Positions 45,190 through 45,654 of a DNA stretch of 64,000 bases are shown piece by piece. This DNA is from Eledone cirrhosa. Lineage: Eukaryota. Position 1 is the stretch's first letter. Every line of letters starts with the position of its first letter. The notes beneath the pieces were generated by a model. The model did no database searches. It worked only from the letters and a program-made list of their open reading frames with translations, and was not told where the DNA came from. The DNA lies in contig OZ024755.1 in NCBI GenBank assembly GCA_964016885.1, positions 26,598,001 through 26,662,000 of the forward strand. Direction: 5' to 3'. A program made the translations under genes and the position numbers.

Positions 45190-45269
<80 letters not shown>

Positions 45270-45384
45270 CAAAATGAACTTAAAACGATAAGTTCTTGTT
45301 GTTGGATATGTCAATATTTATAAAACAATTACTGTTGGAAGCTCCCGGGATGTCAATATTTATTTATAAAACTGATCTATATTA

Positions 45385-45449
45385 TATTTTATCTGATGAA
45401 AGCACACCATAATTTAACTTGGTGTCCTTGAAATATGTATAATGAAATA
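45385..45449 (+). ncRNA. Type I hammerhead ribozyme, family H2-related, canonical core
   Basis: tattttat-CTGATGA-aagcacacca[taatttaact]tggtgtcctt-GAAA-t atgt-ATA-atgaaata, within the (TA)n-flanked element 45267-45580. Confidence 0.8.
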
Positions 45450-45576
45450 AATATGGTTTTATAAATATAGTTTCCATTTGTTAATATCGTATTTTTACTC
45501 CAAATATTTGTTGAGTGCTTTATATCAGTTATAAAAATATTTGCTTGTTGTATCCCAACAATTTAAATAGAACTTT

Positions 45577-45654
<78 letters not shown>

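What the first reader, a model, noticed from the sequence alone, without database searches (positions are those of the whole stretch)
45267..45580. (TA)n-flanked rod-like element with a canonical hammerhead and decayed sister copies
Seen: HHR 45385-45449 has an 8-bp stem I with one G-U, a 9/10-bp stem II and an AUA triplet. Further pairing (TATTTATAAAAC/GTTTTATAAATA and TTGTTGGATA/TATCCCAACAA) extends towards the ends. It shares stem I, core and AUA with the 36303 HHR but has a different stem II sequence that still pairs, so structure is conserved without sequence. Sisters at 49022 (A6U) and 63737 (inverted dimer) are damaged.
Basis: partly seen in the sequence, partly recalled or inferred. 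Interest (0 to 1): 0.7.

Follow-up and report, generated by a model that had tools for sequence, protein, structure and literature searches.

The report
Hammerhead tail of a Penelope retroelement
This 312-base stretch between two TA repeats holds a real hammerhead-ribozyme sequence pattern and belongs to a very common repeat family; it is likely the cut-short tail end of a Penelope-type jumping gene, a known arrangement, rather than a rod-shaped RNA element of its own.

Summary
The hammerhead motif at 45385-45449 is real: intact core, stem I 8/8, stem II 9/10, AUA site; none as good in 60 shuffles. It is not canonical: helix III is only a self-complementary 8-mer (dimer type) and Rfam misses it. 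The damaged sisters are confirmed. The 'rod' is not: the whole element folds no better than shuffles (z -1.4), and the end-to-end pairing needs a base that about 99% of related reads lack. The family is very abundant, shares 3' ends that run into (TA)n, is 5'-truncated, forms head-to-head pairs and has two end points about 90 nt apart. Between them lies a bulged hairpin (9 in the window, 0.04 per shuffle) that I also read in published Hydra-clade Penelope-like consensus ends. Best reading: the truncated 3' end of a Hydra-type Penelope-like element. No parent ORF was found, so a non-coding passenger stays open. Cleavage and expression are untested. The scan noted the same system many times elsewhere in this genome. 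New member of a known kind; interest 0.25.

The parts
45193..45267 (.). left (TA)n array, inferred insertion target
45268..45349 (+). 5' part, rare in the family (0.1-0.7% of the depth over the core in run X1, about 5-6% over 45279-45322 in X14); holds a diverged direct copy of the 45350-45372 motif; a sub-lineage joins 45328 directly to stem I
   Evidence: tables 2, 5, 5c; (31 of 2000 shuffles as good)
45361..45467 (+). hammerhead with extended stem I (12-bp outer helix, 5-nt bulge, 5-6 bp, then stem I proper)
   Evidence: z -3.5, region chosen for its stem, so inflated
45385..45449 (+). type I hammerhead motif: stem I 8 bp, core 45393-99 and 45430-33, stem II 9/10 bp with C-C at position 4, predicted cut after 45441
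45433..45440 (+). self-complementary 8-mer in place of a stable helix III; predicted dimer interface; the common G45437A variant makes it a perfect palindrome
45487..45492 (+). short 3' end point: many relatives run into (TA)n here
   Evidence: table 7; sister arm 63876-63981
45497..45518 (+). bulged hairpin 1 (RCTC, stem-loop, 2-nt bulge, GAGYRC), shared with other families and with published Hydra-clade ends
   Evidence: read by eye
45545..45561 (+). hairpin 2, predicted in 4 of 4 full-length 3' ends with differing sequence
45577..45580 (+). long 3' end point, followed by (TA)n
45580..45648 (.). right (TA)n array
49023..49231 (+). sister copy, 5'-truncated, long 3' end, A6U, stem II shortened; 94% identical
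63737..63875 (-). sister, long arm of a head-to-head pair, 5'-truncated just after the cut site; 87% identical
63876..63981 (+). sister, short arm of the same pair, damaged hammerhead, short 3' end; 85% identical
14167..14195 (-).
36081..36499 (.). head-to-head pair of a distant relative family: intact hammerhead at 36303-36373 on the long arm, G12A copy on the short arm, same hairpins and same two end points

Best explanation
The stretch carries an intact type I hammerhead pattern with a palindromic stub for helix III, lies in a (TA)n array and belongs to a very abundant repeat family, and it is likely the 5'-truncated 3' end of a Penelope-like retroelement of the TA-seeking Hydra type. Inferred mechanism: the element's GIY-YIG endonuclease cuts a (TA)n array; its reverse transcriptase binds the RNA at the two small hairpins behind the hammerhead and starts copying either just before hairpin 1 (short end) or about 90 nt further on, past hairpin 2 (long end); copying stops early, leaving 30-310 nt; when both cut strands prime, a head-to-head pair with one short and one long arm results. 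In the parent's tandem transcript two hammerheads would pair through the 8-nt palindrome, or be helped by the element's protein, and cut after AUA. This single genomic copy has no intact same-strand partner nearby and is predicted to cut weakly or not at all. Shown: motif, family, ends, hairpins, layout. Inferred: enzyme, priming sites, cleavage, a coding parent.
For: Shared 3' end with variable 5' starts in 4 window copies (312, 209, 139 and 29 nt). All lie in (TA)n, the listed target of 25 of 27 Hydra-clade families (PMC8557442 File S1; one of the other two rows is blank only by my reading of the table, see full report). Head-to-head 5'-truncated pairs at 63737 and 36081 and an extension on one arm only, as described for these elements (PMC8557442 passages). 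Two end points in read data from three organism codes, like the two reverse-transcription start sites that bound the tail in the anole element (PMC11167929). Hairpin 1: 9 hits against 0.04 per shuffle, and the same pattern behind the hammerhead of Hydra-2_Amil and Hydra-2_Ajap and twice at the 5' start of Hydra-1_Ajap (by eye). Short palindromic helix III and a long helix II are described for hammerheads of these elements (PMC4209133). Core free of listed variants while N7, loop 2 and stems vary, with variants on both sides of two stem II pairs (45401/45428, 45405/45424, unphased).
Against: No RT or GIY-YIG remnant was found in the window and no genome was held, so the coding parent is not shown. 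The hammerhead differs from published Hydra ones: all 26 table rows have GUH sites, 3-4 bp of helix III and 3-7 bp of stem II. Four window motifs are absent from that supplement. Hairpin 1 was not seen in Hydra-1_Amil or Hydra-1_Obim and is degenerate in Hydra-1_Crog. The tail is about 90 nt, not the 30-40 bp of the review passages. Covariation among the 5 window hammerheads is weak (2 two-sided pairs; 117 of 500 shuffles reach that). One frequent read variant (45429 T>C in X14) breaks the first stem II pair.
Confidence: 0.62

Rival explanations
1. It is a non-coding, non-autonomous passenger (a non-LTR retrozyme or similar pLTR derivative) that keeps the hammerhead and hairpins and borrows a Hydra-type enzyme; the template may be a small circular RNA.
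For: No ORF in the 312 nt or the window; length matches retrozyme monomers (PMC7229834); animal retrozymes are proposed to derive from pLTRs and many families are mostly monomers (bioRxiv 10.64898/2026.07.22.740005); the hammerhead is unlike published Hydra ones; earlier unchecked notes describe such passengers in this genome.
Against: 0 of 5 loci in the window is a head-to-tail repeat; no joint from the 3' end back into the element among the 15 of 39 joints listed; the loose ends listed at the long end are TA-rich or unrelated flanks with no shared continuation (37 rows not shown; contigs drop rare forms); no significant self-paired fold.
Confidence: 0.27
2. It is a self-contained rod-like RNA element (viroid-like or fold-back) whose ends pair.
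For: 60% of bases are paired in the predicted fold and the far pairing appears in about half of the linear ensemble of this copy.
Against: Fold not better than shuffles; far pairing lost in the circular form; G45301, needed for it, is replaced in 6813 of 6866 depth units in X1 and 165 of 166 reads in X14; sisters lack the 5' arm; no hammerhead core on the opposite strand. A compensating change in the rare sub-lineage that has the 5' part would be below the listing threshold, so it is not fully excluded.
Confidence: 0.04
3. The hammerhead is a vestige or a protein-binding fold: cleavage is not needed for the family to spread (compatible with either origin above).
For: 3 of 5 window hammerheads have core damage; AUA was the slowest of four triplets tested in one viroid hammerhead (PMC1636495 abstract); in the anole element hammerhead mutants did not affect insertion in vitro and no RNA ends were seen at the cut site (PMC11167929); 8 of 9 Xenopus dimers did not cleave.
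Against: The core shows no listed variant in reads while neighbours vary (chance 0.03), and it is identical in two families only 71% alike. Damage in single genomic copies is expected after insertion.
Confidence: 0.15

Closest known systems
Hydra clade of C-terminal EN+ Penelope-like elements (Craig et al. 2021, PMC8557442; seen: passages, section 11, supplement parts 2, 52, 53 and term searches)
   Same: (TA)n target, type I hammerhead near the 3' end, 5' truncation, inverted 5'-truncated partner, tail on one arm, and the bulged hairpin that I read in 3 of the 6 new consensus sequences (a fourth degenerate).
   Different: No ORF shown here; AUA instead of GUH, 10-bp stem II with a C-C mismatch, long stem I, no stable helix III; tail about 90 nt; not the Hydra-1_Obim hammerhead. 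The Repbase Hydra sequences were not in the parts I read.
Hammerhead variants with a small palindromic helix III in pseudo-LTRs (Cervera and De la Pena 2014, PMC4209133; seen: parts 1-2 of 4)
   Same: Type I topology, palindromic helix III/loop 3, longer than usual helix II, mostly single dispersed motifs, some pairs on opposite strands 100-700 bp apart.
   Different: Their consensus has short helix I, an extra base after A9 and G10.1-C11.1; here helix I is long and the first stem II pair is A-U. Their supplementary figures were not seen.
Metazoan non-LTR retrozymes (Cervera and de la Pena 2020, PMC7229834, seen: part 2 of 6, passages, section 14; Li et al. 2026, bioRxiv 10.64898/2026.07.22.740005, seen: parts 1-3 of 5, no supplements)
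   Same: Non-coding, about 300 nt, low GC, type I hammerhead that may act as a dimer, link to pLTRs.
   Different: No tandem array or circular junction seen; no strong self-paired fold; expression untested.
PAc, the Poseidon element of the green anole (Frangieh et al. 2024, PMC11167929; seen: parts 1-2 of 4)
   Same: Model for how it works: both strands cut and extended, AT-rich target, two internal start sites bounding a tail, an AC-rich stem-loop, protein-assisted hammerhead.
   Different: Another clade; there the hammerhead and tail overlap the ORF start; no sequence comparison was made.

Membership tests
Type I hammerhead ribozyme | Conserved core CUGANGA, GAAA, and NUH site | tested here: met
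   AUA is a natural site in ELVd(+) (PMC1636495 abstract)
Type I hammerhead ribozyme | Helices I and II | tested here: met
   8/8 and 9/10 pairs; predicted pair probability about 0.43 for stem I and 0.88-0.99 for stem II
Type I hammerhead ribozyme | Stable helix III in the monomer | tested here: not met
   2-bp hairpin is unfavourable by about 2.9 kcal/mol; the 8-mer is self-complementary, duplex -2.2 kcal/mol: dimer type
Type I hammerhead ribozyme | Match to an Rfam hammerhead model | tested here: not met
   0 hits at gathering score in the window; no hammerhead family among 11 hits at E up to 10
Type I hammerhead ribozyme | Loop 1 / loop 2 tertiary contact | not tested
   No model made; the kept C-Y mismatch at stem II position 4 is a candidate only
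Type I hammerhead ribozyme | Self-cleavage | not testable with these tools
   needs an assay
Hydra-clade Penelope-like element | Single ORF with RT and C-terminal GIY-YIG (DKT, CxCX5C linker) | tested here: inconclusive
   None in the window; no genome held; truncated copies would lack it
Hydra-clade Penelope-like element | Insertion in (TA)n | tested here: met
   5 of 5 loci; read ends
Hydra-clade Penelope-like element | Hammerhead near the 3' end, sense strand | tested here: met
   core 187 nt before the long end here and 189 nt in the 36303 family
Hydra-clade Penelope-like element | 5' truncation with shared 3' end; inverted 5'-truncated partner | tested here: met
   the inverted partner is seen at the sisters, not at 45268 itself
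Hydra-clade Penelope-like element | Tail extension on one end only | tested here: met
   two end points about 90 nt apart; longer than the 30-40 bp in the paper's text
Hydra-clade Penelope-like element | Hammerhead of the published Hydra form (GUH, 3-4 bp helix III) | tested here: not met
   26 of 26 table rows are GUH; this one is AUA. A shared trait of the listed members, not the clade's definition, which rests on the protein
Hydra-clade Penelope-like element | Partial tandem forming a pLTR next to a full copy | tested here: inconclusive
   not seen in the window or in the listed read ends
Non-LTR retrozyme | Head-to-tail repeats, one hammerhead per unit | tested here: not met
   0 of 5 loci; no such joint or shared continuation listed; other loci of the genome could not be read
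Non-LTR retrozyme | Non-coding unit of 150-450 nt | tested here: inconclusive
   no ORF in the 312 nt, but the family's true 5' limit is unknown
Non-LTR retrozyme | Highly self-paired circular RNA fold | tested here: not met
   z -1.68 circular, -0.81 for the common part
Non-LTR retrozyme | Expression as linear and circular RNA | not testable with these tools
   no RNA run was available to lay
Viroid-like or HDV-like rod RNA | Rod fold and ribozymes in both polarities (criteria recalled) | tested here: not met

The most novel reading that the evidence does not exclude
The two hairpins between the short and long end points are the recognition signal of Hydra-type reverse transcriptases, conserved from coral and sea cucumber elements to this genome, and this family is a protein-less passenger that keeps only that signal plus an unusual long-armed hammerhead whose unpaired C in stem II is a protein or tertiary contact. 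That would give a defined, portable RNA tag for Penelope-type insertion into (TA)n and make the template-recognition step directly testable.
Probability: 0.25. Interest if true: 0.55.

Novelty: new member of a known kind. Interest (0 to 1): 0.25.

Why it matters
As a locus it is ordinary: one dead-end copy among very many. The family adds an undescribed-looking hammerhead form (AUA, long stems, C-C mismatch) that Rfam misses, and the hairpin shared with published Hydra ends gives a concrete candidate for how these retroelements choose where to start copying, which their describers list as open. I did not find the hairpin or the mismatch in print: the words hairpin and stem-loop do not occur in the main text of PMC8557442 and two searches returned 0 papers; the library lacks most subscription journals, and supplementary figures of PMC4209133 and the 2026 preprint were not seen. 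Both features were already noted by this scan on other DNA of the same genome.

Tried and rejected
Whole-genome analysis: no genome is held. Rfam: nothing. Pattern scans for relatives: 0 loci in metagenome contigs and 0 in viral contigs with the gapped hammerhead pattern; one 25-nt hit (L001) is a chance match inside a bacterial sugar-nucleotide gene cluster and was dropped. Sequencing runs: no RNA holder listed. Earlier findings by sequence and near this place: nothing. The 5' part as a decayed inverted copy of the 3' end: not significant, 244 of 2000 shuffles as good. The 5' part as the end of a Hydra ORF: no recognisable motif in three frames. Short protein-motif search for a Penelope ORF in six frames: 14 scattered hits amid stop codons, none clustered; no profile search was run. 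tRNA head or SINE origin: ARAGORN finds no gene in the window. Identity with Hydra-1_Obim: its hammerhead and 3' end are different. DNA transposon or MITE: no terminal inverted repeat at the element's ends among the inverted repeats listed, and polar 5' truncation argues against it. Searches for a published octopus or cephalopod hammerhead family gave only the Craig paper and general retrozyme papers (listings only).

Full report
Setting. The window is AT-rich animal-type DNA crowded with microsatellites, with no recognisable gene among its long frames. No genome is held. Earlier notes call the host an octopus; I did not establish that.

The motif. Between two (TA)n arrays, 45268-45579 holds a type I hammerhead pattern with an intact core, stem I of 8 pairs, stem II of 9 in 10 pairs and an AUA site. 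A descriptor scan gave 2 intact-core hits in the window, this one and 36311, against 1 weak hit in 60 shuffles. Stem I continues outward through a bulge into a 12-bp helix. Helix III is only an 8-nt self-complementary stretch: as a monomer hairpin it is unfavourable by about 2.9 kcal/mol, as a duplex of two molecules it is favourable (-2.2 here, -10.5 in the 36311 family). That is the dimer-type architecture described for metazoan hammerheads and for variants in Penelope-like elements (PMC4209133). Rfam does not detect it. AUA is a natural but slow site (PMC1636495 abstract).

The rod. The whole element folds no better than shuffles. In reads G45301 is replaced in about 99%. The rod is therefore a property of this copy at most.

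The family. Twelve of 16 listed runs hold part of the stretch; I laid 6 of them or their additions (X1, X4, X5, X6, X14, X16). 6053 of 16.3 million contigs in X1 and 31181 of 12.5 million reads in X14 lie on it; runs under two other organism codes carry it too (64 and 25 contigs). One contig of the 3' end has depth 11744 in X5 beside contigs of depth 3-23, which suggests hundreds to thousands of near-identical ends, though the tool warns that depth is no copy number. Of 15 positions with listed variants inside the hammerhead none is a core position (chance 0.03); N7 varies in loose-end reads; both sides of two stem II pairs vary in the compensating direction; the C-C positions have no listed variant; one variant in X14 breaks the first stem II pair. 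These counts are unphased, RAD reads pile on few loci, and 3 rows were not shown. Among the 5 window hammerheads covariation alone is weak.

The ends. Four window copies share one 3' end and start at different places (312, 209, 139, 29 nt). A second, shorter end lies at about 45487-92: reads run into (TA)n there (5222 and 1077 reads in X14; 7, 55 and 40 contigs in X1), and the short arms of both head-to-head pairs stop at the matching place. At the long end the listed loose ends are TA-rich or unrelated flanks with no common continuation, and no joint leads back into the element among those listed, so tandem units were not seen. The first 77 bases are rare (0.1-0.7% of core depth in X1); they contain a diverged direct copy of the motif at 45350-72, and some relatives join 45328 straight to stem I. 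Whether this is an old internal duplication or a chimera I could not settle.

The hairpin. Prompted by earlier notes, I looked behind the hammerhead and found a bulged hairpin at 45497-518. Its pattern occurs 9 times in the window against 0.04 per shuffle (200 shuffles, maximum 1); the pattern was written after seeing these copies, so the 4 hits in the two hammerhead families are partly by construction, while the other 5 hits, in at least two unrelated families, are not. Eight of 9 fold as drawn when folded alone (the 36418 copy takes a shifted register). In the 5 head-to-head pairs that carry it (36065, 63820, 28923, 6673, 18695) the inverted repeat stops 0-18 nt before it. Reading the six new Hydra-clade consensus sequences of PMC8557442 by eye, the same pattern, with G-C in place of A-U at the first pair, stands behind the hammerhead in Hydra-2_Amil and Hydra-2_Ajap and twice at the 5' start of Hydra-1_Ajap; it is degenerate in Hydra-1_Crog and I did not see it in Hydra-1_Amil or Hydra-1_Obim. 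Its place at both the end and the start of consensus sequences fits the idea that the tail is the beginning of the next tandem unit.

Comparison with the known. Hydra-clade elements insert in (TA)n: by my count of File S1, 26 of 27 rows list (TA)n and one is blank (the figure of 25 in the evidence cell understates this by one). They carry hammerheads near the 3' end, are 5'-truncated, often have an inverted partner and a tail on one end. In the one element reconstituted in vitro both strands are cut and extended, copying starts at two internal sites bounding the tail, and the hammerhead cuts only with protein and is not needed for insertion (PMC11167929). All of this fits. What does not: the hammerhead form (26 of 26 published Hydra rows are GUH), the longer tail, and the missing ORF. 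It works like a Hydra-type end; membership of the clade cannot be given without the protein. The defining retrozyme feature, head-to-tail units, was not met where I could look.

Verdict. Observation partly confirmed; interpretation partly supported. Best reading: truncated 3' end of a Hydra-type Penelope-like element (0.62); non-coding passenger of the same enzymes (0.27); rod RNA (0.04). Whether the hammerhead cuts is untested. The scan has reported the same system, including the C-C mismatch, the hairpins and the paired end points, on other DNA of this genome (unchecked notes, not independent support). New member of a known kind, interest 0.25.

Noticed in passing
window 12553-12735, 56709-56818, about 51900-52000 (-), 15391-15505: A third hammerhead-like family with a real helix III, a near-palindromic loop and GUA site; head-to-head pairs with one long and one short arm in (TA)n; the copies seen have stem or core damage.
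   Followed up: partly
window 6673-6862, 28846-29276, 18639-18860, 61414-61600: A family of head-to-head pairs that carries the same bulged hairpin (6790, 28917, 18677, 61471) but no CUGANGA core within the arms present; short arms stop just before the hairpin.
   Followed up: partly
window 12217 (+) and 33586 (-): Related hammerhead-like motifs with G-C-rich stem I and a 6-nt palindromic helix III; 33586 has U4C, 12217 has a weak stem II.
   Followed up: no
window 45120-45192 and 44480-44560: Two decayed core-bearing pieces ending 64-65 nt before a TA array; the first abuts the left array of the finding, so several ends may have piled into one target.
   Followed up: no
window 63016-63222 and 45649-46075: Another (TA)n-bounded family: 63106 (-) has the hairpin with a G-C first pair; related sequence and an inverted repeat (45934-46039) lie directly right of the finding.
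   Followed up: no
window 36234-36247: Both arms of the 36081-36499 pair begin at the same base around a central TATATA, 97% identical over 340 nt: either a fixed 5' start about 65 nt before the core or a fold-back during copying.
   Followed up: no
window 49280-49345 and 48867-48970 / 49396-49500: A tRNA-like head by eye (not called by ARAGORN) and a duplicated block of about 100 nt on either side of the 49023 sister.
   Followed up: no
window 11648-12067 (-): A 139-aa acidic frame that reads like the C-terminal part of a Tigger/CENP-B-type transposase (resemblance recalled, not searched).
   Followed up: no
window 61775-62083 (+), 62398-62600 (+), 14623-14808: Fragments that read like RTE-type LINE reverse transcriptase remnants (resemblance recalled, not searched).
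   Followed up: no
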